Shown here piece after piece: positions 20,793 through 29,647 of a stretch of DNA of 60,972 nt. The position numbers were made by a program, and so were the translations under genes. The notes below the pieces were generated by a model. It was not told the DNA's origin, ran no database searches, and saw only the letters and a program-made list of their open reading frames with translations. Source of the DNA: Methanobacteriota archaeon (GTDB lineage: Archaea > Thermoplasmatota > Poseidoniia > Poseidoniales > Poseidoniaceae); NCBI GenBank assembly GCA_002726495.1, contig PBTH01000047.1, positions 1-60,972 on the forward strand, in the 5' to 3' direction. Position 1 is the first letter of the stretch. Every line of letters begins with the position of its first letter.

Positions 20793-21071
20793 ATGGTCCT
20801 TCTGAACCTCTGGTCCTTGTCTCATCTGTTGATTTGGCTCTCAGCAGGACGTTGGACTACCCTTCGTTGGCCATTGTTTGTAGTGCTGTCACTCGCTTGG
20901 GAGTGTTTTGAATGGGCTATTGACGGTCAATCATGGGCTTCATTCGCTGTGGAGCCCCTTGAGAATAAAATCGCTGATGTTGTAGTGAATACCATAGGGT
21001 TCTGGATTGGTTCGCGATTGCGTATTGATTCAACGGACTCAGTTGTCCTCAGTACATCGTTCAAGAACTGA
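20793..21071 (+). CDS. Small multi-pass membrane hypothetical protein
   Basis: Hydrophobic 92-aa ORF with patterned polar residues (WSLSH...AWECFE...E..ENKIADVVVN..G). Confidence 0.65.
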   Translation: MVLLNLWSLSHLLIWLSAGRWTTLRWPLFVVLSLAWECFEWAIDGQSWASFAVEPLENKIADVVVNTIGFWIGSRLRIDSTDSVVLSTSFKN

Positions 21072-22056
21072 ACAGTCTTGCTTTGACTTTGCGCATGTTG
21101 AGCCGGACTCCAAGGAGTAGTTTACGCCATAGAGGAAGACGTACAGGGTGGCTGAATACATCTCCAGACCTACGAACAATTTCATTCAATATGGATTGAT
21201 ATGCATCAGACATGATTTGAGGCTGTACTCGTGCGCGTGCATCCAGGTATCCGAAGAGATGGTTTGCTGAAGAGCGATGTCGCTTTATCATCTCAACGTA
21301 TTCGATAATGAAGCCACGCCACGATGGCGATTTTGCAACATTCGTTTGATGCAAATCATGGATTGAGATATTGTGAGATGCGAGAATGTCCAAGGGTAGG
21401 TAGATTCGTCCACGCTCCATATCTTCGTTGATGTCTCTTAGGACATTGATAAGTTGCATTTGGATTCCTAAATCAACGGCATGAAGCCGTGCTGCTCTGT
21501 CTTCATATCCATAAATTTCAATCAAAATTAGGCCCACAGCGGATGCAACCTTGTAACAGTATGAGCGGAGTTCATCCCATGTTTTGTTTTGAACGGGGTA
21601 GAGGTCGTCTTCCATACCTTCTAGCACGGTCTCAAAGTCGTGAATTTTGATGGGAAACCTTGCGAAAACATCTTGCAAAGCGATGAAAATAGGATGGTCA
21701 CTGGAGGTGATTTCCTCGTCCTGGGCCTTCTTTATTTTAATTCGGATATCAACAAGGGCCATCAAGCGACGACGGTACTCATCTTCAGGTAGTGCCGGTT
21801 CCTTTCCAGCATGAATTTCACTGATGATGCGCTGTCGAGCATCGGTTGCTTTTCGCAGTGAGTTGGTTTCCAAAATAGAGGGCTCTTCGTCTCCATCTAC
21901 AATGTCGTCCACCCATCGGCACAAGGCATAGACCGCATGAACGGCTCTTCGCTTGTCATACTGAAGTGCTGAAAATGAAGAAAAGAAGGTCGTAGATGCC
22001 TCTCTGCATACCGACTCGCAGTAAGTGTAGGCATTGTCAACGAGAAGTTGTTTCAT
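21061..22056 (-). CDS. crtB: Phytoene/squalene synthase family protein (phytoene synthase)
   Basis: YALCRWVDDIVD, YCYKVASAVG, LGIQMQLINVLRDINED..RGRIYLP; directly downstream of crtI. Confidence 0.9.
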   Translation of the reverse strand: MKQLLVDNAYTYCESVCREASTTFFSSFSALQYDKRRAVHAVYALCRWVDDIVDGDEEPSILETNSLRKATDARQRIISEIHAGKEPALPEDEYRRRLMALVDIRIKIKKAQDEEITSSDHPIFIALQDVFARFPIKIHDFETVLEGMEDDLYPVQNKTWDELRSYCYKVASAVGLILIEIYGYEDRAARLHAVDLGIQMQLINVLRDINEDMERGRIYLPLDILASHNISIHDLHQTNVAKSPSWRGFIIEYVEMIKRHRSSANHLFGYLDARARVQPQIMSDAYQSILNEIVRRSGDVFSHPVRLPLWRKLLLGVRLNMRKVKARLFSS

Positions 22057-22065
22057 GTTGATTCC

Positions 22066-23679
22066 TCAAGCCGATGATGGTGCCCCAGTGACAGTTTCTT
22101 TTCGCTTTTGTTTGAGTGCGTTTCGACCTTCCTTTGATCGTTTCCGGCTTTCAAACCACGAGTCTACGCCGTTCCAATCAGGGATGATTCCAAGGCGGTC
22201 AAGGATTAGTTTGCTACTGATTCGAGCGGATTCGTAGATGACGGGAAGCCCGCTTCCCGGATGGGTGCCTCCACCAACGAGGTAAAGATTTTTGATTTCA
22301 TCAAACTGGTTTTTTGGACGTCGCCAGAGCATTTGATCCAGGCCGTGAGCAAGGTTGAATACAGCCCCTCTGTAACAGTGGTCGCCCCAATCTTCGGGGG
22401 TGATGATGAGTTCAGTTTGGATGTGGTCTCGGAGGTTTCCAAATCCGAGTTTGGTTTCAATTTGGTCGATAATGCGATCGCGGTAGGCACTCTTCTCATC
22501 GTCCCAGTTGATGTTTTCGTGAATGTGAGAAACGGGGACAAGGGCGTAGATGGTGGAACATCCTTCAGGAGCAAGACCCGGGTCGGTAACACATGCGTTT
22601 TGAACATATACAGAGGGGTCATCCCATGTAAGCCTGTGATGATTTTCAATGTCTTCAAGATTTGATTCGTAATTTTCGGAAGCGTAAATTTGGTGGTGTG
22701 GTAAATTGTCAAAGGTCTTGTCAACTCCGAGATAAAGCATGAAGGTTGAACAAGAGTATTTTTTCGTGTCCAATTTCTTATTGCTCCATTTTTTACGCAC
22801 ATTGTCAGGGAATAATTGAGTCATTCCGTTTGCAAAATCAGCATTCATAATGACTTTGTCCGCCATGAAGTCACCTTGTTTTGTGGTCACTCCTTTGATG
22901 GTTTTACCTTCCATAATCACTTTCTGAACTTCTTCTTCCATGCGGAAGGTAACACCCAGGTCACGTGCGATTTCGGCCATTCGTTCGCTGACGCTACCGA
23001 GGCCTCCAATCGGATGAAAAATACCATATTCGTATTCGAGATATGCCAGCATTGTGAACAAGCTGGGGCAATTGAAAGGTGACATTCCGAGGTACTTCGT
23101 TTGAAAGGACATAGCAAGCATGAGGCGGTCATCATCAAACAGTTTCATCAAGTCTTTCGCAACACTTCGATGAGGGCGAAGCACGCTCGATACACGAATT
23201 GCGCGCTTGCTCAGAAGGTCGGTTGGACCGTACCAAGGCTCTTGTAGGCAAGCTTTTGACTTGTTGAGTTTGTTACTGTTGTCTTCAACATAGCGTTGGA
23301 AAGCGCTCGCGTTGCTGTCTCCCGAGAGGGTTCGGATTCGTTCAGTCATTTCATCAAGGTCACTGGTGCAGTCCAGTTGCCCACCTTGGCCGAATATTAG
23401 ACGGTAATTCATATCGAGTTTGTGGAGTTTAAGTTCTTCATGAGCATCCATCCCGATGGCTTTGAAAATGTCTTCAATGACCTCTGGATAGTGAAAGAAG
23501 GTTGGACCGAGGTCAAACTTATATCCGTCTCGCTCAAACACTTTATTTCGTCCACCAACAGCCTTTGAGCGTTCAAACACGGTTACATCTACACCGGATT
23601 TCGCAAGAAGAAGGGATGATGCAAGACCCCCAGGGCCAGCGCCAATAATAGCCACCTTTGGTCGCACGCTGGTCGTCAT
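22066..23679 (-). CDS. crtI: Phytoene desaturase (CrtI/CrtN family)
   Basis: FAD-binding GAGPGGLA...VGGR, FDLGPT, SCSTFMLYLG, and C-terminal NLYLVGGGTHPGSGLP. Confidence 0.92.
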   Translation of the reverse strand: MTTSVRPKVAIIGAGPGGLASSLLLAKSGVDVTVFERSKAVGGRNKVFERDGYKFDLGPTFFHYPEVIEDIFKAIGMDAHEELKLHKLDMNYRLIFGQGGQLDCTSDLDEMTERIRTLSGDSNASAFQRYVEDNSNKLNKSKACLQEPWYGPTDLLSKRAIRVSSVLRPHRSVAKDLMKLFDDDRLMLAMSFQTKYLGMSPFNCPSLFTMLAYLEYEYGIFHPIGGLGSVSERMAEIARDLGVTFRMEEEVQKVIMEGKTIKGVTTKQGDFMADKVIMNADFANGMTQLFPDNVRKKWSNKKLDTKKYSCSTFMLYLGVDKTFDNLPHHQIYASENYESNLEDIENHHRLTWDDPSVYVQNACVTDPGLAPEGCSTIYALVPVSHIHENINWDDEKSAYRDRIIDQIETKLGFGNLRDHIQTELIITPEDWGDHCYRGAVFNLAHGLDQMLWRRPKNQFDEIKNLYLVGGGTHPGSGLPVIYESARISSKLILDRLGIIPDWNGVDSWFESRKRSKEGRNALKQKRKETVTGAPSSA

Positions 23680-23701
23680 ATTCCTCGTGGAGGTGATTGG
23701 A

Positions 23702-23709
23702 CATATAAA
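23702..23709 (-). promoter_or_regulatory. Putative archaeal TATA box of crtI-crtB
   Basis: Minus strand reads TTTATATG, ending 23 nt upstream of the crtI ATG (23679), with an A-rich BRE-like stretch further upstream. Confidence 0.6.
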
Positions 23710-23771
23710 GGGAGGTTTTTACTCGCAAAGATTTACCTTCAAAAAATAACACATGGGCGGCAATAAAAGGA

Positions 23772-25001
23772 CTACTTGATGATACTGTTCGGGTCAATAA
23801 GGACTGAGAATTCATCCAAATATGGCCCCATTGAACTGATCAGATCAACTTGAGGGTGTCCCTTGAGTACCATGCCATCCATGTACATCAAGGAGCGGAT
23901 GATTGGAAAGGCCTCTTCGCCGAAGGAACATCCTGCTAACACTGCAGCCTTCACGGTTTTCATCATTTGTTCCGTCAAAGAAACTTCGCTGACCGAGGTT
24001 CCTACGAACCCGTCATACAAAGCCCCCATTGAATCATAATATGTTTGAAGCGTTTTTCCTGTTGGCTGAACATCAGCCATGGTCAGCATGGCGTCGTAAG
24101 CGTTTCGCAATTCACCCTTTGCCAAGAAGTAAAAGAAACCAAACAAAGCATTGCGAACATGGTCTGGAGCGTTGCATATTGCACCGGTGTCAATGAAGAT
24201 GAAGTTCCCCTCATCGTCCATCATTGCATTGCCTGGGTGGAGGTCTCCGTGAAAGGTTCCGATTCCAAACATAAACGCCCCATGTATTCGAAACAGTTCA
24301 AGCATATCTGGCCAACTTAATGTGCCCTTTTCGAGGTGTTGCTCAAGGGTTGGATGGGTGATTTCTTCCATGACCAAAACATGACTATTGGAAAGTTCCT
24401 GCCACATTTTTGGAAATTTTAGTTTCGGCATGGGGAAATGAATCTCAATTTCATTTGCCTTTTCAATGAGGTTATTGCGCCCAGATATCTCATTTGTAAG
24501 ATTTAACTCACGTAGTGTATAATCTTCAATGTGAGCTAAAAGACCAATTGGGTTGCCCACTTTTCTGAGCTTTCTACGGAAGAAAAGGCCAATGGTAATC
24601 CAACGCTTCATTCTACGGACATCCCGCTTGAACGATTCTTCAAAATCAGCCTTGATAATTTTCACAACAACTTTGGTGCCGTCTTTGAGTACACCACGGT
24701 GAATTTGACCGATACTCGCTGCTGCAAACGGCTCTTTTTCCAATGATTCAAAATTACCAATGAACCCTTCGGGTGCAAAGCGTTCGAGTAACTTCTGTGA
24801 ATCCTCTGTAGGAATAGTCGCTCCTCTGCTGTACAACTGTTGTAATTCAATGCAACGTTCAGGTTCGATTAGATCTGGCCGTAGGGCAAAAATTTGGCCC
24901 AATTTTACCGCCAAAAGGCCCATGGATTGGATCTTGTTAACATCCACGGGTTTTTTGCCTTTCAACTGACGAAAGAAACGAAGGAACGTCAGCAATTTCA
25001 T
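23772..25001 (-). CDS. UbiB/ABC1/AarF family atypical kinase/ATPase
   Basis: KxGQ motif (VKLGQIFALRPDL), FAAASIGQIHR, VVKI, FHGDLHPGN, FIDTG. Confidence 0.9.
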   Translation of the reverse strand: MKLLTFLRFFRQLKGKKPVDVNKIQSMGLLAVKLGQIFALRPDLIEPERCIELQQLYSRGATIPTEDSQKLLERFAPEGFIGNFESLEKEPFAAASIGQIHRGVLKDGTKVVVKIIKADFEESFKRDVRRMKRWITIGLFFRRKLRKVGNPIGLLAHIEDYTLRELNLTNEISGRNNLIEKANEIEIHFPMPKLKFPKMWQELSNSHVLVMEEITHPTLEQHLEKGTLSWPDMLELFRIHGAFMFGIGTFHGDLHPGNAMMDDEGNFIFIDTGAICNAPDHVRNALFGFFYFLAKGELRNAYDAMLTMADVQPTGKTLQTYYDSMGALYDGFVGTSVSEVSLTEQMMKTVKAAVLAGCSFGEEAFPIIRSLMYMDGMVLKGHPQVDLISSMGPYLDEFSVLIDPNSIIK

Positions 25002-25018: not shown

Positions 25019-26419
25019 TTAGTCGACCAGCTCAATGGCCTTGAGCTCATGGCGATGAATTAGGTAATGCCACAGGTTATCGGGTGTTCCTTCACCTTCA
25101 GTTCGCTGAATGACAATATTAGCATCTTTTGTGAATCGAGTTGAGAGTGCGCCCTCGATAATCCCATCGTCCATCTCCCACATAGGTAGCGCATCAGGGT
25201 CTGAGACCGGTGGATGGTTCAATCCTACAATCACATGGAATTGAGGGTCTACATCGTACTGTAACATGCCGAGCCCAGCGTGCTCCCACCAATCCATCAT
25301 TTCGTCCAAGAACTCAATGTCATTATCTATAGAGCGTAGGGAGAAAGCGATTTCCCGACCGACACGATTTCCAATCTGGCGTAGCATGCGTCCCAAATCT
25401 ATTCCCAAGACTTTCAAATTCGATAACTTACCTTCCGTCAGTCTCTTGCGAGCTTCATTAACTTCCTTACCCGCAGCGAAGAAAGCATCAGGGTCAAACG
25501 GAGTATCCTCATTAGGCAATTCTCCGTCAAATCCGAGCGCAACTGATACATTCTTCAAGAATGAACCTTCTCCAATCGTCAACCTTAATGGGTCGTTGAT
25601 TTGGTTTTCAGTAAACCTTGCACGAGCTGTTTCCAAGGGCACAGCGGCTTCCCATATGGCATCGATCAGGTGAAGATGTGCTTGAGAAAAGGGTGATGAC
25701 TCAATGATCAGAGCCGCATCTTCCTTTCCACGTCCTACTGGGTTGTCTTCAATGTTAAGGTATTGAATCACTTCAGATTGGTCTTGAACAAAGCCGAGGG
25801 AGTCCAATTCGTCGGAGTGACGTACCTCAATACTCGTATCCAATTTTTCAAAGAATCTGAGAGTACGTCCGTCCAAGTGTGTGATGATTTGTACGACTAC
25901 TCCACGTACAGCAGCCGTATTAACTGCCTCAAGAGCGTCAGGATTTCTACAGAGGTGCAATATTCCAAACTGGCCGAGAAGGAGAATCAGTCGTTCTTCA
26001 GACTCATTAGCCATCTTTTGTAGCCGGTTGTAAATGTGTGTACGTTCTTTGAGTACGGCAAACCGTGGGTCATCTAAATCCCGACGTTGCTTCTCATAGG
26101 ATGCATCGGTTTCGGTGATTCCTTGGGAAAGGTCTTCAAATCCACCTACGAGTCTGTCGAGTTGTTGTTTCCTCGATTGAATGATATGTTCCATGGCCTC
26201 GTTTACTCTGAGGCTCGAGAAAAGCATCGGGCGGTCTGCTGTTGCAGTAACGATTCCCATTTCTTGCAAACGAGAGAGGCTATTATAAGCGTCCAAACGA
26301 GTTGTATTGAGCTCTTTTGCAAGTTCGGATGCCTTCATTTTTGGTCTTGAGCCCAGAATAAGGATGGATCGGACCTCACGTTCATTGAGACCTGCTTCAA
26401 GGAGTAATTCTTCCCACAT
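25019..26419 (-). CDS. TrmB-family transcriptional regulator with additional C-terminal (V4R-like) domain
   Basis: N-terminal TrmB wHTH (GLNERE...ASELAKELNTTRLDAYNSLSRLQEMGIV....RP..F), coiled coil, TrmB effector/PLD-like domain (RGVVVQII...IEVRH...WEAAVP), then about 190 extra aa with L..IG..VG..IA / W...GLG / GIIEGAL pattern. Confidence 0.8.
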   Translation of the reverse strand: MWEELLLEAGLNEREVRSILILGSRPKMKASELAKELNTTRLDAYNSLSRLQEMGIVTATADRPMLFSSLRVNEAMEHIIQSRKQQLDRLVGGFEDLSQGITETDASYEKQRRDLDDPRFAVLKERTHIYNRLQKMANESEERLILLLGQFGILHLCRNPDALEAVNTAAVRGVVVQIITHLDGRTLRFFEKLDTSIEVRHSDELDSLGFVQDQSEVIQYLNIEDNPVGRGKEDAALIIESSPFSQAHLHLIDAIWEAAVPLETARARFTENQINDPLRLTIGEGSFLKNVSVALGFDGELPNEDTPFDPDAFFAAGKEVNEARKRLTEGKLSNLKVLGIDLGRMLRQIGNRVGREIAFSLRSIDNDIEFLDEMMDWWEHAGLGMLQYDVDPQFHVIVGLNHPPVSDPDALPMWEMDDGIIEGALSTRFTKDANIVIQRTEGEGTPDNLWHYLIHRHELKAIELVD

Positions 26420-26420
26420 T

Positions 26421-26888
26421 TCAAGCGCCTCCAGTAACCTTTGAGATATCGGCCAAAATTTTCGCTACGTGGCGACGTGGACGAAACAACCAATCGTACA
26501 CATAGTGAATCGTGTTGTCAGGGCCAATAAGGAACGATGATTTTGCCGGGAATTGGCCTAGATGCATTGGTACGTTGTACATGACGCCAACAGCTCGTTC
26601 AGGGTCAGCTAGCAACGGGAAGGGTAGATCGCCGAGCCCCAATTTGAATGAGGCCTGTTCTTCTACGGTGCCAGGTCCAATGCCAACAATTGAGCAGCCC
26701 GCAGACTGGAAGAGGTCATGTTGTTGCTTGAAGGTGAGGCATCCGCGCTTGCAGGTCGGGGAGTTGTGTCTGGAATAGAAGAATATCACACGCCAAGTTC
26801 CGTCGAGCGAGGTACTGTCAAAGAACTCACCAGTATCGGTTTCAAGTTTGAAAGATGGCGCTGCTTGTCCTACGAGATTGATTTTCAT
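26421..26888 (-). CDS. Peroxiredoxin (Bcp/PrxQ)-fold protein with atypical active site
   Basis: G..AP.F.L, IFFY, SIVGI, FPLLADP, FLIG; active-site region reads YSRHNSPTCKRGC. Confidence 0.8.
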   Translation of the reverse strand: MKINLVGQAAPSFKLETDTGEFFDSTSLDGTWRVIFFYSRHNSPTCKRGCLTFKQQHDLFQSAGCSIVGIGPGTVEEQASFKLGLGDLPFPLLADPERAVGVMYNVPMHLGQFPAKSSFLIGPDNTIHYVYDWLFRPRRHVAKILADISKVTGGA

Positions 26889-26897
26889 ACTAATTCC

Positions 26898-27509
26898 TCA
26901 GACCGGTAGAATGTGGCCCATGCGAGACGCCTTGGTCCGCAGGTATGAACGATTCTGTGCACATTGCCCAACAATCAAGGGCACTCTGGTTTTTACATTG
27001 ATGCCATATTGGAGCAACTGCGCTTCCTTGTCGGGATTATTTGTAATCAAATCGATTGATTCAACGCCCATGGTGTACAACATCTCAGCAGCGAAGTCAT
27101 AGGTTCGCCCGTCCGCAGGCAAACCGAGAGCGAGGTTCGCATCCAACGTATCGTATCCCTCATCTTGCAGAGCATAGGCTTGCATCTTGGAATAGAGACC
27201 GATTCCTCGACCTTCTTGACGTAGGTAGACTATAGCTCCGTTTCCGGCTTCTTGTACAGCTTTCATAGAGGCATGCAATTGTGGCCCACAGTCGCATCTC
27301 AAGGAGCCGAAGGCATCTCCAGTCAAACACTCGGAGTGCATCCGCACGAGAGGTGTGCCTTGGGAAAGGTCGCCCACATAGAGGACTGAATGCTCCTTAC
27401 CGGTATGGGGGTCGCGAAACGCCCTGATGCGGAATTCGCCGTGCTCGGTAGGTAGGATCGCATCAGCTTCTGGGTTTTTGACTACAGGTGTTTGGCTTGG
27501 TGGCTGCAT
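26898..27509 (-). CDS. ribA: GTP cyclohydrolase II
   Basis: RMHSECLTGDAFGSLRCDCG, YLRQEGRGIGL, LITNNPDK, YLRTKASRMGH. Confidence 0.95.
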   Translation of the reverse strand: MQPPSQTPVVKNPEADAILPTEHGEFRIRAFRDPHTGKEHSVLYVGDLSQGTPLVRMHSECLTGDAFGSLRCDCGPQLHASMKAVQEAGNGAIVYLRQEGRGIGLYSKMQAYALQDEGYDTLDANLALGLPADGRTYDFAAEMLYTMGVESIDLITNNPDKEAQLLQYGINVKTRVPLIVGQCAQNRSYLRTKASRMGHILPV

Positions 27510-27531
27510 GTTAGAAAAATCAACATTTTCT

Positions 27532-27539
27532 CATATAAA
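27532..27539 (-). promoter_or_regulatory. Putative archaeal TATA box of ribA-prx-trmB-ubiB unit
   Basis: Minus strand reads TTTATATG, ending 23 nt upstream of the ribA ATG (27509): same octamer and spacing as upstream of crtI. Confidence 0.6.
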
Positions 27540-27583
27540 CCCCTGTTCGTATCCGGCATAGGGTCTAAACGGTTCTTGATATA

Positions 27584-28093
27584 GTGAAAGAAGAACTTTT
27601 GACCATGGGCGGCTTAATCTGTGACCTGGGTGTTGCTGCTCGTGTGGTCACTGACAACAGGGTTCTCCTCGTTCAAGAGGCCCGAGGAAAGTACTCTGGG
27701 TGTTGGGGCCTCCCTAAAGGATACGTGGACGAGGGAGAGAGTCCTGAGCAAGCCGTCCTAAGAGAACTGCGTGAAGAAACAAACCTAGACGGCTCGGTGA
27801 TCGGACTCGCTGCTGTTCGCACTGCACTCAGGAAAGACTGTCCAGCCATCTTCTTGTGTTACGATGTATCTGCTGCGCCTTCTGCCCTTCTTCGAAAATC
27901 AGAAGAGATTTCAGCCGCAGGTTGGTACACGCTGAGCGAAGTAGGACAACTGGACTGGGTCTCAGAAACCATGCAACAACTTGCAATAGAGGGTCTTAGG
28001 CACCGAAAAACAATGAAACCATCTCACAGCCTCACGACTCGCCAAACACCCTACGCTGTTTACAGTACTTCACACAAGGGGGGCTTGCAATGA
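27584..28093 (+). CDS. Nudix hydrolase
   Basis: Nudix box WGLPKGYVDEGESPEQAVLRELREETNL. GTG start (alternative ATG at 27605). Confidence 0.9.
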   Translation: MKEELLTMGGLICDLGVAARVVTDNRVLLVQEARGKYSGCWGLPKGYVDEGESPEQAVLRELREETNLDGSVIGLAAVRTALRKDCPAIFLCYDVSAAPSALLRKSEEISAAGWYTLSEVGQLDWVSETMQQLAIEGLRHRKTMKPSHSLTTRQTPYAVYSTSHKGGLQ

Positions 28094-29634
28094 TTCCGCC
28101 CAGTCGGCTTAACGTCCACGGTGCAGTCAACTCTTCGGGGAACTTCATTGTCTACTGGATGACATCAGCCCGCAGAGCACATTGGAATCATGCTCTTGAG
28201 CATGCAATAGATCTTGCAAATCAACATCAACAGCCTCTCGTCGTCATCGAGTGCTTGGCCCTCAATCATCGATGGGCAAATGACCGAATCTCGACGTTCG
28301 TGCTTCAAGGAATGATCGATAACCGTGCGGCGTTTGCCCAAACAGGAGCCACCTACATTCCGTATGTTGAAACCCGCCCAAAGGAAGCTTCAGGTTTGCT
28401 TGAAGTATGGCTTGGTCAGGCAACAGCTTGCGTCATTGATGACTTTCCAACCTATTATCCAAGGTATGTCTTGGAAACTGCGCTAAAATTCAAAACTTGC
28501 GAACTTCATGTTGTTGATTCCAATGGTTTTATGGCCATGCGTGCTCAAGGGAGAGATTTCAAAACCGCTTACTCACTCCGTCGTCATCTGCACAAAACCA
28601 TACTTGAGCACATGCATGAATTCCCGCTTGCCAATCCCTTGGACAATGCAAAAGACTTGCCAATGATTGATGCGACCCTAATTGAGGGTATTTTTGCTAA
28701 GAGCAACACCCCCCTCACGCCCTATGAGTATTTGTGGAGAGTCTCTGAAGGGGGCGATGTTGGTAAGGCTGCCCTTTCCAAACTGAATATTGATCATACT
28801 GTTCCGCCTGTCCTAACCAAGAAGGGCGGCAGCGTGGAAGCTCGCCGGCGATGGAAAGAGTTCCTTGCTCGCCGGCTCGTCAACTACAAGGAAATGCGCA
28901 ATCAACCTCAAGAAAACGGGGCAAGCGGAATTTCACCATGGCTTCATTTCGGCCATATTGGCATCCACCAAATCCTCAACGAAATTTTCACAGCATACCG
29001 TTGGGATGTTTCGATGGTAACTCTGCCAAATAACGGACGAAGGCAAGGCTGGTGGGGATTGCCTGAGCCGGTTGAAGCCTTCCTTGATCAGGTCATCACA
29101 TGGAGGGACATAGGGTTCATTCATTGCTCAATGATACCCGACCACACCGAATATTCATCACTTCCACAATGGGCACAAAAAACCCTCGCAGAACATTCTC
29201 AGGACCCCCGTTCCTATGTTTATACCTTTGAGCAATTTGAGCAAGCTCAAACTCACGACCCCTTGTGGAATGCGGCGCAGCAGCAACTAAGGCAAGAAGG
29301 AATCATACACAATTACCTCCGAATGCTCTGGGGAAAGAAAATTTTGGAATGGTCACCTGACTCACAAACCGCCATGGAATGGATGATTGCAATCAATGAC
29401 CGTTGGGCTCTGGATGGAAGGGATCCGAATTCATACACTGGAATTGGATGGGTTATGGGTAAATTTGACAGAGGATGGACTGAGCGTGAGGTTTATGGAA
29501 AGATTCGCTGCATGACAACGGCGTCCACGATGAGAAAATTCAAGACCAAAGATTACATTGAGAAATACAGTAAAGACTCAACGAAGCAAACGGTCTTGGG
29601 TTCAGGGCCGTCACTTTACACTGCTCACCAATAA
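28090..29634 (+). CDS. phr: Class II CPD DNA photolyase
   Basis: IVYWM...R...NHAL, SGISPWLHFGHI, and class II C-terminal signature HNYLRMLWGKKILEW...INDRWALDGRDPNSYTGIGW..G.FDRGW.ER.VYGKIRCM. Confidence 0.92.
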   Translation: MIPPSRLNVHGAVNSSGNFIVYWMTSARRAHWNHALEHAIDLANQHQQPLVVIECLALNHRWANDRISTFVLQGMIDNRAAFAQTGATYIPYVETRPKEASGLLEVWLGQATACVIDDFPTYYPRYVLETALKFKTCELHVVDSNGFMAMRAQGRDFKTAYSLRRHLHKTILEHMHEFPLANPLDNAKDLPMIDATLIEGIFAKSNTPLTPYEYLWRVSEGGDVGKAALSKLNIDHTVPPVLTKKGGSVEARRRWKEFLARRLVNYKEMRNQPQENGASGISPWLHFGHIGIHQILNEIFTAYRWDVSMVTLPNNGRRQGWWGLPEPVEAFLDQVITWRDIGFIHCSMIPDHTEYSSLPQWAQKTLAEHSQDPRSYVYTFEQFEQAQTHDPLWNAAQQQLRQEGIIHNYLRMLWGKKILEWSPDSQTAMEWMIAINDRWALDGRDPNSYTGIGWVMGKFDRGWTEREVYGKIRCMTTASTMRKFKTKDYIEKYSKDSTKQTVLGSGPSLYTAHQ

Positions 29635-29647
29635 AGAGAGGACTCCC

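What the first reader, a model, noticed from the sequence alone, without database searches (positions are those of the whole stretch)
25019..26419. TrmB-type regulator carrying an extra Cys-free V4R/H-NOX-like C-terminal domain
Seen: wHTH, coiled coil and TrmB effector domain, followed by about 190 aa with L.RQIG..VG.EIA, W.HAGLG and MDDGIIEGAL. That pattern resembles V4R small-ligand domains but lacks the Zn-binding cysteines. Established: TrmBs are usually sugar sensors, and there are no sugar-uptake genes around this one. Inference: a two-input sensor that may bind a hydrophobic ligand (heme, flavin, carotenoid breakdown product) and is embedded in the operon it likely controls.
Basis: partly seen in the sequence, partly recalled or inferred. 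Interest (0 to 1): 0.65.

Follow-up and report, generated by a model that had tools for sequence, protein, structure and literature searches.

The report
Cysteine-less V4R regulator paired with peroxiredoxin
This gene from a Marine Group II archaeon encodes a DNA-binding regulator whose only sensor part is a cysteine-less V4R domain; it always sits right after an unusual peroxiredoxin gene, inside a conserved photolyase, carotenoid and antioxidant cluster that it probably controls.

Summary
Window 25019-26419 (-) encodes a 466-aa protein. It has a TrmB winged helix, a long helix that matches the TrmB/TrmBL2 dimerisation helix, a PLD-like domain and about 190 extra C-terminal residues carrying the quoted motifs.

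The extra domain is a real but diverged V4R domain of the H-NOX/Bet3 superfold. The four cysteines kept by its paralogues and distant relatives are all replaced.

The "two-input sensor" idea fails. The N-terminal module resembles TrmBL2 and lacks TrmB's sugar-binding subdomain, so V4R is the only candidate sensor. H-NOX-type heme ligands are not conserved.

New points:
- The Cys-less clade arose once, inside Cys-bearing Poseidoniales paralogues that lie next to an Fe-S carrier gene.
- The protein's single cysteine, C157 in the PLD-like domain, is Cys in 155 of 159 orthologues.
- In 401 Thermoplasmatota genomes the gene co-occurs 67/67 with an atypical peroxiredoxin (CKRGC motif, catalytic Arg replaced by Lys), and the two are always adjacent.
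- The order ribA-prx-regulator-ABC1-crtI-crtB, divergent from NUDIX-photolyase-SDR, is conserved in about 80 species.

Most likely it is the local regulator of this photo-oxidative-stress island, and its V4R does not sense through thiols. The ligand, the operator and any effect on transcription are unknown. It is a new variant of a known kind, of moderate interest.

The parts
25019..26419 (-). Regulator gene, 466 aa: TrmB-family wHTH, long helix, PLD-like domain and a Cys-less V4R domain
26207..26419 (-). Residues 1-71: TrmB-type winged helix-turn-helix
   Evidence: Pfam PF01978, 34.4 bits. It is the most conserved domain, with 0.80 mean column identity in non-redundant orthologues.
26078..26206 (-). 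Residues 72-114: long helix in the position of the TrmB/TrmBL2 dimerisation helix, followed by a variable spacer
   Evidence: helix 72-99 in the model; aligned with TrmBL2 and TrmB
25634..26077 (-). Residues 115-262: PLD-like domain, equivalent to the N-terminal half of the TrmB effector domain, without the sugar-binding subdomain
   Evidence: Foldseek hits to TrmBL2, TrmB and Nuc/PLD; PF11495 matches only positions 2-134 of 233 in relatives
25949..25951 (-). Codon of C157, the only cysteine of the protein (motif GILHLCR)
   Evidence: Cys in 155 of 159 orthologues and in 1 of 49 paralogues or distant relatives
25418..25633 (-). Residues 263-334: conserved connector (DPLRLTIGEGSFL) and N-terminal helices of the V4R domain
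   Evidence: P277, L278, G283, G285, S286 and F287 are at least 90% conserved across orthologues and paralogues. Model confidence is low here.
25052..25417 (-). Residues 335-456: V4R core. The four ancestral cysteine positions are P404, W414, T440 and W450.
26421..26888 (-). Atypical peroxiredoxin PrxA (invariant SPTCKRGC; FPxKSSF where the catalytic Arg normally sits). Its stop codon lies 1 nt before the regulator's start codon.
   Evidence: strict co-occurrence and adjacency with the regulator
26898..27509 (-). ribA (GTP cyclohydrolase II), first gene of the regulator's transcription unit
27510..27604 (.). Divergent control region between ribA and NUDIX. It has two outward-facing TATA boxes 22-24 nt upstream of the start codons. 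A conserved block sits next to each box: CSGTTT beside the NUDIX-side box and RACRRG beside the ribA-side box.
23772..25001 (-). ABC1/UbiB-type atypical kinase, starting 17 nt after the regulator's stop codon
23680..23771 (-). crtI promoter region (AAAACCTCCCTTTATATG, 24 nt upstream of the ATG), conserved across species
22066..23679 (-). crtI (phytoene desaturase)
21061..22056 (-). crtB (phytoene synthase)
27605..31511 (+). Divergent unit: NUDIX hydrolase, photolyase/cryptochrome-like protein (28090-29634), SRPBCC-SDR/DUF1731 fusion and a canonical BCP-type peroxiredoxin

Best explanation
The gene encodes a one-component transcription regulator of Poseidoniales (Marine Group II archaea).

Shown here:
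- The DNA-binding and dimerising part (wHTH, long helix, PLD-like domain) is of the TrmBL2 type and has no sugar pocket.
- The only sensory module is a C-terminal V4R domain. After a gene duplication it lost all four cysteines that its paralogues and distant relatives retain, and it has been kept under strong constraint since.
- The gene forms an obligate module with the atypical peroxiredoxin directly upstream. The 1-nt gap, or 4-nt overlap in other lineages, suggests translational coupling.
- The module lies inside a conserved photo-oxidative-stress island: ribA-prx-regulator-ABC1-crtI-crtB, divergent from NUDIX-photolyase-SDR.

Inferred:
- The protein binds the roughly 70-bp divergent ribA/NUDIX control region, and possibly the crtI promoter. 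It probably acts as a repressor that overlaps the strong TATA/BRE elements.
- It releases or changes its DNA binding when the V4R domain receives a signal that does not depend on thiols.
- The most likely signal is a hydrophobic small molecule tied to photo-oxidative damage or isoprenoid pigments, for example the substrate or product of the partner peroxiredoxin. The alternative is the state of that peroxiredoxin itself.
- C157 may add a redox input in most lineages.
For: Architecture.

V4R identity:
- NCBIfam MsvR partial match.
- Pfam V4R above the cut-off in full-length relatives P0165 and P0178 and precomputed for the paralogues.
- The family profile hits MJ1460 at E 3.9e-7.
- 39 of the top 40 fold hits are H-NOX, Bet3/TRAPP, BcsD/CesD, YslB or DmpR-sensor folds.

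Cysteine loss and constraint:
- None of 159 orthologues keeps the four-Cys cluster, and 151 have no Cys at all in the C-domain. The cluster reads CCCC in 46 of 49 paralogues and distant relatives.
- The Cys-less clade is one branch (SH-aLRT 100, stem length 2.45) nested among Cys-bearing forms.
- V4R column identity is 0.72 in non-redundant orthologues.
- The regulator is more conserved than each of the ten neighbouring genes compared, for example 92% against 51-85% in L013.

Genomic context:
- The gene order is conserved in about 80 species genomes and down to 56% protein identity.
- A 39%-identical relative keeps only ribA-prx-regulator.
- PrxA and the regulator co-occur in exactly the same 67 of 401 genomes and are always adjacent.
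- The Cys-bearing paralogue sits elsewhere, next to an Fe-S A-type carrier gene. This points to divergence of function after the duplication.

Precedent: MsvR, an HTH+V4R protein, regulates oxidative-stress genes (PMC3729527). V4R domains are thought to bind hydrophobic ligands (PMC2253512).
Against: - No operator was found. The conserved blocks beside the TATA boxes look like BRE elements, and a similar A-rich block plus TATA box precedes the rhodopsin gene.
- No ligand can be named.
- The query does not reach Pfam's V4R model on its own.
- The fold hits are marginal (E 8e-4 to 7e-2, TM 0.4-0.5).
- TrmBL2, the closest structural match for the N-terminal part, is a chromatin-like protein with no known ligand, so a non-sensing role is conceivable.
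Confidence: 0.5

Rival explanations
1. Peroxiredoxin-to-regulator thiol relay. The atypical Prx reacts with peroxide and oxidises C157 of the regulator, forming a mixed disulfide or an inter-subunit disulfide, as in Orp1-Yap1 or 1-Cys OhrR. The V4R domain serves only as a docking or structural module.
For: - PrxA and the regulator co-occur 67/67 and are always adjacent. The 1-nt gap or 4-nt overlap suggests translational coupling.
- C157 is the only Cys and is Cys in 155 of 159 orthologues, against 1 of 49 paralogues. It was gained in the same clade that lost the V4R cysteines.
- PrxA keeps an invariant CKRGC pair.
- The island is rich in antioxidant genes.
Against: - The P0107 lineage (66% identity, seen on 35 contigs up to 1.9 Mb) has no cysteine at all in the regulator, yet it keeps PrxA and the cluster.
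- P0127 has H and P0129 has M at this position.
- A relay therefore cannot be the mechanism common to the family.
- It does not explain why the V4R domain is so conserved.
Confidence: 0.2
2. No small-molecule sensing. The protein is a TrmBL2-like architectural or constitutive repressor, and the Cys-less V4R is an oligomerisation or protein-protein interaction module, as Bet3 and BcsD folds are in their complexes.
For: - The best structural match of residues 1-265 is TrmBL2, a chromatin protein with no known ligand.
- The top fold hits of the C-domain are assembly subunits: BcsD/CesD and TRAPP Bet3/Trs31.
- The loss of the Cys cluster removes the canonical metal or redox site.
Against: - There is a single copy per genome, fixed in one gene cluster and strictly paired with one enzyme gene. 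That pattern is typical of local regulators, not of chromatin proteins.
- Many polar residues in the V4R core are at least 95% conserved in non-redundant orthologues: R347, R352, E356, E373, E379, D417 and R428.
Confidence: 0.15
3. Chromophore-based sensor. The V4R/H-NOX-like domain binds heme or a flavin and senses light, O2 or NO.
For: - The fold belongs to the H-NOX/V4R superfold. H-NOX proteins appear at ranks 7, 9, 16 and beyond and sub-threshold in the profile search.
- ribA, the first step of flavin synthesis, and a photolyase-like gene are in the cluster.
Against: - The position that roughly maps to the H-NOX proximal His (H380) varies among H, Y, A and F in orthologues.
- The segment before the conserved helix (VSDPDALPMW) has no YxSxR motif.
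- No known flavin-binding motif was found.
- ribA also occurs in known oxidative-stress regulons such as E. coli SoxRS (from my own knowledge), which explains its presence without any flavin sensing.
Confidence: 0.08

Closest known systems
MsvR (methanogen-specific V4R regulator; NCBIfam NF053755)
   Same: It is a DNA-binding domain fused to a C-terminal V4R domain, it controls oxidative-stress genes, and it is transcribed divergently from or next to its targets. The query's residues 335-440 align with MsvR model positions 119-224 (E 1e-6).
   Different: MsvR has a different HTH, is about 250 aa, and has no coiled coil or PLD-like domain. Its mechanism depends on three conserved V4R cysteines (PMC3729527), which are all absent here. 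The query scores 28.7 bits against a cut-off of 220.
TrmBL2 / TrmB (Thermococcales; PDB 5bpd, 3qph, 2f5t)
   Same: The wHTH, dimerisation helix and PLD-like domain match. Foldseek gives E 7e-13 to TrmBL2 over about 265 residues, and Pfam TrmB is met.
   Different: TrmB senses sugars through a C-terminal subdomain that is absent here. TrmBL2 ends after the PLD-like domain, whereas this protein continues into a V4R domain.
Cys-bearing TrmB-V4R paralogues of Poseidoniales (e.g. P0303, P0316) and distant TrmB-V4R proteins (P0165, P0178)
   Same: They share the same full-length architecture at 22-37% identity and the conserved connector PL..(L/I)GEGSF. IMG names both kinds 'TrmB / predicted hydrocarbon binding protein'.
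   Different: They keep the four-Cys cluster and match Pfam V4R. They lack C157. They lie next to an Fe-S A-type carrier gene, not next to the peroxiredoxin or the carotenoid cluster.
Phenol-sensor domains of DmpR/PoxR/MopR (XylR_N + V4R)
   Same: They have the same superfold (DmpR 6iy8, rank 38, E 0.067). They are the paradigm of a V4R-type domain that binds a hydrophobic effector and controls a transcription factor.
   Different: They are bacterial sigma-54 activators, and their pocket is braced by a Zn site with three conserved cysteines (PMC5847659). That site is absent here.
OhrR-Ohr and similar regulator-peroxidase gene pairs
   Same: A regulator gene is strictly linked to the gene of a thiol peroxidase that it controls, and in 1-Cys OhrR the regulator has a single conserved cysteine. 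This is an analogy from my own knowledge.
   Different: The protein families are unrelated (MarR and OsmC). Here some lineages have no cysteine at all in the regulator.

Membership tests
TrmB family (Pfam PF01978) | TrmB-type winged helix-turn-helix at the N-terminus, above Pfam's gathering score | tested here: met
   Residues 8-69, 34.4 bits against a cut-off of 25.6.
Sugar-sensing TrmB / TrmBL1 (PF11495; NCBIfam NF047392, NF047390) | Complete effector-binding domain, including the C-terminal sugar-binding subdomain | tested here: not met
   The query has no PF11495 hit. Relatives match only profile positions 2-134 of 233. The NCBIfam equivalogs score 16.5 against 500 bits and 11.3 against 650 bits.
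TrmBL2-like | wHTH, dimerisation helix and PLD-like domain as the whole protein | tested here: not met
   The fold of residues 1-265 matches TrmBL2 at E 7e-13. The protein then continues for about 200 residues into a further domain.
V4R domain (Pfam PF02830 / COG1719) | Homology to V4R domains | tested here: met
   The query alone does not reach the Pfam model. Full-length relatives do, at E 1e-17 to 2e-17, and the hit is precomputed for the paralogues. The family profile hits the solved V4R protein MJ1460 at E 3.9e-7. The fold search returns the H-NOX/Bet3/V4R superfold.
V4R domain (Pfam PF02830 / COG1719) | Conserved cysteine cluster (metal or redox site) | tested here: not met
   The four positions are P404, W414, T440 and W450. 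None of 159 orthologues keeps the cluster, while 46 of 49 paralogues and distant relatives have CCCC.
MsvR (NF053755) | Equivalog score over the whole protein, and three conserved V4R cysteines | tested here: not met
   28.7 bits against a cut-off of 220, and only the V4R part aligns. The cysteines are absent.
H-NOX (heme-NO/O2 binding) | Proximal heme-ligating histidine and YxSxR propionate-binding motif | tested here: not met
   The similarity is at fold level only. H380 varies among H, Y, A and F, and no YxSxR precedes the conserved helix. The mapping is approximate and rests on the alignment.
Local regulator of the surrounding cluster | Sequence-specific binding to the cluster promoters and signal-dependent control | not testable with these tools
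   Only conserved synteny and co-occurrence are available. No operator was recognised.

The most novel reading that the evidence does not exclude
The atypical peroxiredoxin (CKRGC, catalytic Arg replaced by Lys) and the Cys-less V4R regulator form a new kind of peroxide or lipid-hydroperoxide signalling pair. The V4R domain would read the peroxiredoxin's state, or its hydrophobic substrate or product, without thiol chemistry. This would switch on photoprotection (photolyase, carotenoids, flavin supply) in the ocean's most abundant planktonic Euryarchaeota.
Probability: 0.15. Interest if true: 0.75.

Novelty: new variant of a known kind. Interest (0 to 1): 0.5.

Why it matters
Marine Group II archaea are abundant in surface oceans, live in the light and remain uncultured. 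I know of no characterised regulator in them, and the paper library holds none that mentions Poseidoniales together with TrmB.

This protein is the best candidate for the switch of their conserved photoprotection and carotenoid island. That island probably also supplies the retinal precursor for the genome's rhodopsin.

The evolutionary pattern is also useful. One duplication was followed by loss of the V4R cysteine cluster and gain of a single cysteine elsewhere. The Cys-less clade is also strictly linked to an atypical peroxiredoxin gene. Together these give a natural experiment on how V4R sensors change their input.

The questions can be tested in vitro with recombinant proteins, without culturing the organism.

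Tried and rejected
1. Sequence search of PDB with the whole protein or its family profile gave nothing significant. There was a weak local resemblance of residues 210-261 to the C-terminal part of 2-Cys peroxiredoxins (E 0.02-0.2). I judge it a chance beta-hairpin similarity, because the model has a strand where the peroxiredoxin has a helix.

2. Foldseek with the full-length model returned only N-terminal-domain hits in the 50 matches listed. A separate C-domain model was needed.

3. Operator search:
- The conserved CSGTTT and RACRRG blocks in the ribA/NUDIX region form no clear palindrome.
- The composite AACRG-N3-TTKATAT occurs three times in the genome: twice in this region and once before an unrelated ABC ATPase, which is about the chance expectation.
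- The crtI and rhodopsin promoters have similar A-rich blocks plus a TATA box, so these blocks are probably BRE elements.

4. A crude genome-wide promoter profile failed, because start codons were too imprecise. Only 13 of 726 genes had a strict TATA box at the expected place.

5. I first thought C157 occupied the Lys position of a PLD HKD motif and rejected the idea. By position, the HKD-equivalent His would be H201 on the strand 198-201, whereas C157 lies on helix 152-158.

7. The Blh search in the window's own genome found nothing, but the control genomes were silent too, so it is uninformative.
Full report
**What is there**

The ORF at window 25019-26419 (-) encodes a 466-aa protein, P0001.

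Identical or near-identical proteins occur on many marine metagenome contigs and in MAGs named Poseidonia or Poseidoniaceae, that is Marine Group II archaea. JGI already labels them 'sugar-specific transcriptional regulator TrmB / predicted hydrocarbon binding protein'. So automated annotation has noticed the TrmB+V4R combination. The paper library holds no paper that mentions Poseidoniales together with TrmB. Only two papers hold both V4R and TrmB, and the one I opened does not describe this fusion.

**N-terminal module**

- Pfam places a TrmB wHTH at residues 8-69, at 34.4 bits against a cut-off of 25.6.
- An AlphaFold model built from 16 orthologues has mean pLDDT 76.9. It shows the wHTH, a long helix at 72-99 and an alpha/beta domain at 119-258.
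- Foldseek against PDB matches about 265 residues to TrmBL2 (5bpd, E 7e-13) and TrmB (3qph). It matches the alpha/beta domain to PLD/Nuc-type folds.
- The query has no hit to the TrmB effector-domain model PF11495. Its distant relatives match only positions 2-134 of 233.

The sugar-binding C-terminal subdomain of TrmB is therefore missing. From my own knowledge of the TrmB structure, most of the maltose contacts lie in that subdomain. A 'two-input sensor' is not supported.

**C-terminal module**

Five lines of evidence agree on V4R:

1. NCBIfam MsvR aligns residues 335-440 to the V4R part of its model (E 1e-6, far below the family cut-off).
2. An exhaustive search of 1.84 billion representative proteins found full-length relatives at 25-38% identity. 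Two of them, P0165 and P0178, carry Pfam V4R at E about 1e-17, and two more match below the cut-off.
3. The Poseidoniales paralogue family at 30-37% identity has PF01978 plus PF02830 precomputed.
4. A profile of the C-domains of orthologues, paralogues and distant relatives hits the solved V4R protein MJ1460 (2osd/2oso) at E 3.9e-7. H-NOX and archaeal TRAPPC3 follow below threshold.
5. A separate model of residues 286-466 has pLDDT 79.9 and pTM 0.69. In Foldseek, 39 of its top 40 hits are BcsD/CesD, TRAPP Bet3/Trs31/TPC6, H-NOX, YslB and the DmpR phenol sensor, which belong to the H-NOX/V4R/Bet3 superfold. The scores are marginal, with E 8e-4 to 7e-2 and TM 0.4-0.5.

So 'V4R/H-NOX-like' is right at the level of homology and fold, although the query does not reach Pfam's V4R model on its own.

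**Cysteines**

In a 209-sequence alignment the four cysteines of canonical relatives map to P404, W414, T440 and W450 of the query.

- Among 159 orthologues (at least 50% identity) none keeps the cluster, and 151 have no cysteine at all in the C-domain.
- Among 49 paralogues and distant relatives, 46 have all four cysteines.
- A quick maximum-likelihood tree puts the Cys-less proteins on one branch (SH-aLRT 100, stem 2.45 changes per site). That branch is nested within Cys-bearing Poseidoniales paralogues, with distant Cys-bearing TrmB-V4R proteins outside. The careful tree search did not finish, so the finer topology is provisional.
- The domain is not decaying. In non-redundant orthologues the V4R core has 0.72 mean column identity, against 0.80 for the wHTH and 0.73 for the PLD-like domain.
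- The regulator is more conserved than each of the ten neighbouring genes compared.
- The protein's only cysteine, C157 on a helix of the PLD-like domain, is Cys in 155 of 159 orthologues but in only 1 of 49 of the others.
- One widespread lineage (P0107, 66% identity) has no cysteine at all.

**Heme**

The alignment to Shewanella H-NOX puts the proximal histidine roughly at H380. (It is H103 in that protein, as the PDB title of the H103G mutant indicates.) H380 varies among H, Y, A and F across orthologues. No YxSxR motif precedes the conserved helix. H-NOX-type heme binding is therefore unlikely. Flavin or carotenoid-derived ligands cannot be tested here.

**Context**

- On the minus strand lie ribA (26898-27509), a peroxiredoxin (26421-26888), the regulator, an ABC1/UbiB kinase (23772-25001), crtI and crtB.
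- On the plus strand, divergent from ribA, lie a NUDIX hydrolase, a photolyase/cryptochrome-like protein, an SRPBCC-SDR/DUF1731 fusion and a canonical BCP peroxiredoxin.
- No sugar-transport genes are nearby.
- A tblastn survey of the 102 loci fetched so far, 100 of them carrying this orthologue or its 39% relative, shows the arrangement conserved across about 80 Poseidoniaceae species genomes. It holds, with small changes, down to 56% regulator identity in MGIIb.
- A 39%-identical Cys-less relative keeps only ribA-prx-regulator.
- The peroxiredoxin's stop codon lies 1 nt before the regulator's start codon. In other lineages the two genes overlap by 4 nt.

**The peroxiredoxin partner**

PrxA is atypical. 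It has invariant FFY(S/A)xxxSP(T)CKRGC and FPxKSSF. Compared with the canonical BCP in the same cluster, the active-site Pro and Arg are replaced and the cysteine spacing is CxxxC.

In 401 Thermoplasmatota genomes, PrxA (E at most 1e-25) is found in 67. These are exactly the 67 that have the Cys-less regulator, and the two genes are adjacent every time. Genomes that have only the Cys-bearing paralogue lack PrxA.

That paralogue sits next to an Fe-S A-type carrier gene (PF01521), in one case beside formate-dehydrogenase genes and Ni-SOD. Many genomes carry both paralogues. The sampled genomes of the window's own genus have only the Cys-less one.

**Promoters**

The roughly 70-bp ribA/NUDIX region has two outward-facing TATA boxes 22-24 nt upstream of the start codons, which suggests leaderless transcripts. 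A conserved block lies next to each box: CSGTTT beside the NUDIX-side box and RACRRG beside the ribA-side box. crtI has its own conserved promoter, AAAACCnnCCTTTATATG.

I found no palindrome and no regulon. The composite motif occurs only here plus one hit at about the chance level. A similar A-rich block plus TATA box precedes the rhodopsin gene on another contig. The blocks are most simply BRE elements, and the operator remains unknown.

**Interpretation**

Shown:
- The architecture and the V4R homology.
- The single-origin loss of the cysteine cluster, followed by strong constraint.
- The conserved C157.
- The obligate pairing with PrxA.
- The conserved island.

Inferred:
- The protein is the local regulator of this photo-oxidative-stress and carotenoid island.
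- V4R is its only sensor.
- The V4R signal is not thiol-based.

On general knowledge of V4R domains (PMC2253512), a hydrophobic small molecule is the most likely input. A plausible candidate is the substrate or product of the partner peroxiredoxin, or an oxidised isoprenoid. A thiol relay from PrxA to C157 is attractive but cannot be universal, because Cys-free lineages keep the module. A ligand-free architectural role and a chromophore-based sensor are less likely.

MsvR, which is HTH+V4R, cysteine-dependent and controls oxidative-stress genes (PMC3729527), is the closest functional analogue. This protein is not a member of that family.

**Verdict**

This is a new variant of a known kind (HTH+V4R one-component regulators and the TrmB family) in an ecologically important, uncultured group. 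Interest is moderate, at 0.5.

Noticed in passing
window 26421-26888 (-): The peroxiredoxin directly upstream of the regulator is an atypical subfamily. It has invariant SP(T)CKRGC (CxxxC spacing, with the first Pro of PxxxT/SxxC replaced by Ser or Ala) and FPxKSSF (Lys where the catalytic Arg sits in the canonical BCP of the same cluster). It occurs only in genomes that carry the Cys-less regulator (67/67 of 401).
   Followed up: yes
L100 7001-8801; L101 7001-8777: The Cys-bearing TrmB-V4R paralogue of Poseidoniales is followed by an Fe-S A-type carrier gene (PF01521). In L100 it also lies beside FdhD/formate-dehydrogenase genes and Ni-SOD. It may be an Fe-S or redox sensor.
   Followed up: partly
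window 27510-27604 and 23680-23771: The three island promoters (ribA, NUDIX, crtI) carry near-consensus TATA boxes (TTTATATG or TTGATATAG) 22-24 nt upstream of the start codons, each preceded by an A-rich/AAC block. Only 13 of 726 genes with free upstream sequence had a TATA box of that strength at that position in a crude genome scan.
   Followed up: partly
window 25634-25792 (residues 210-261 of the regulator): Weak local similarity to the C-terminal part of typical 2-Cys peroxiredoxins (FIIDPNGVIKHLSVNDLPVGRS...; E 0.02-0.2). It is not significant and is probably a chance hairpin resemblance. It is curious only because a peroxiredoxin gene is adjacent.
   Followed up: partly
L046, L079: Contigs that carry this archaeal cluster are filed in MAGs named 'Verrucomicrobiales bacterium' and 'Salinimicrobium sp.'. 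They are probably mis-binned Poseidoniales contigs.
   Followed up: no
L004 14885-15963; L006 14359-15473: In other Poseidoniales genera, crtI is followed by an unannotated protein of about 190-200 aa and an ABA4-like (PF14108) protein. In L004, crtB is inverted and Ni-SOD is nearby. These genes are absent from the window's version of the island.
   Followed up: no
window 31577-35390 (+): Two large proteins with no Pfam match (839 aa and 447 aa), followed by an Lnb_N-domain protein, lie downstream of the divergent unit. In L004 an MMPL transporter occupies the equivalent place.
   Followed up: no
genome contig C6 35857-36555 (+): The genome encodes one rhodopsin (PF01036, 114 bits) on another contig. 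No Blh (PF15461) match was found, but the control genomes were silent too and the genome is 81% complete.
   Followed up: partly
G351:C1:70564-71940; G149:C13:809-1842: In two related genomes the regulator gene is interrupted: one has an in-frame TGA and the other is split into two ORFs. These may be pseudogenes or assembly errors.
   Followed up: no
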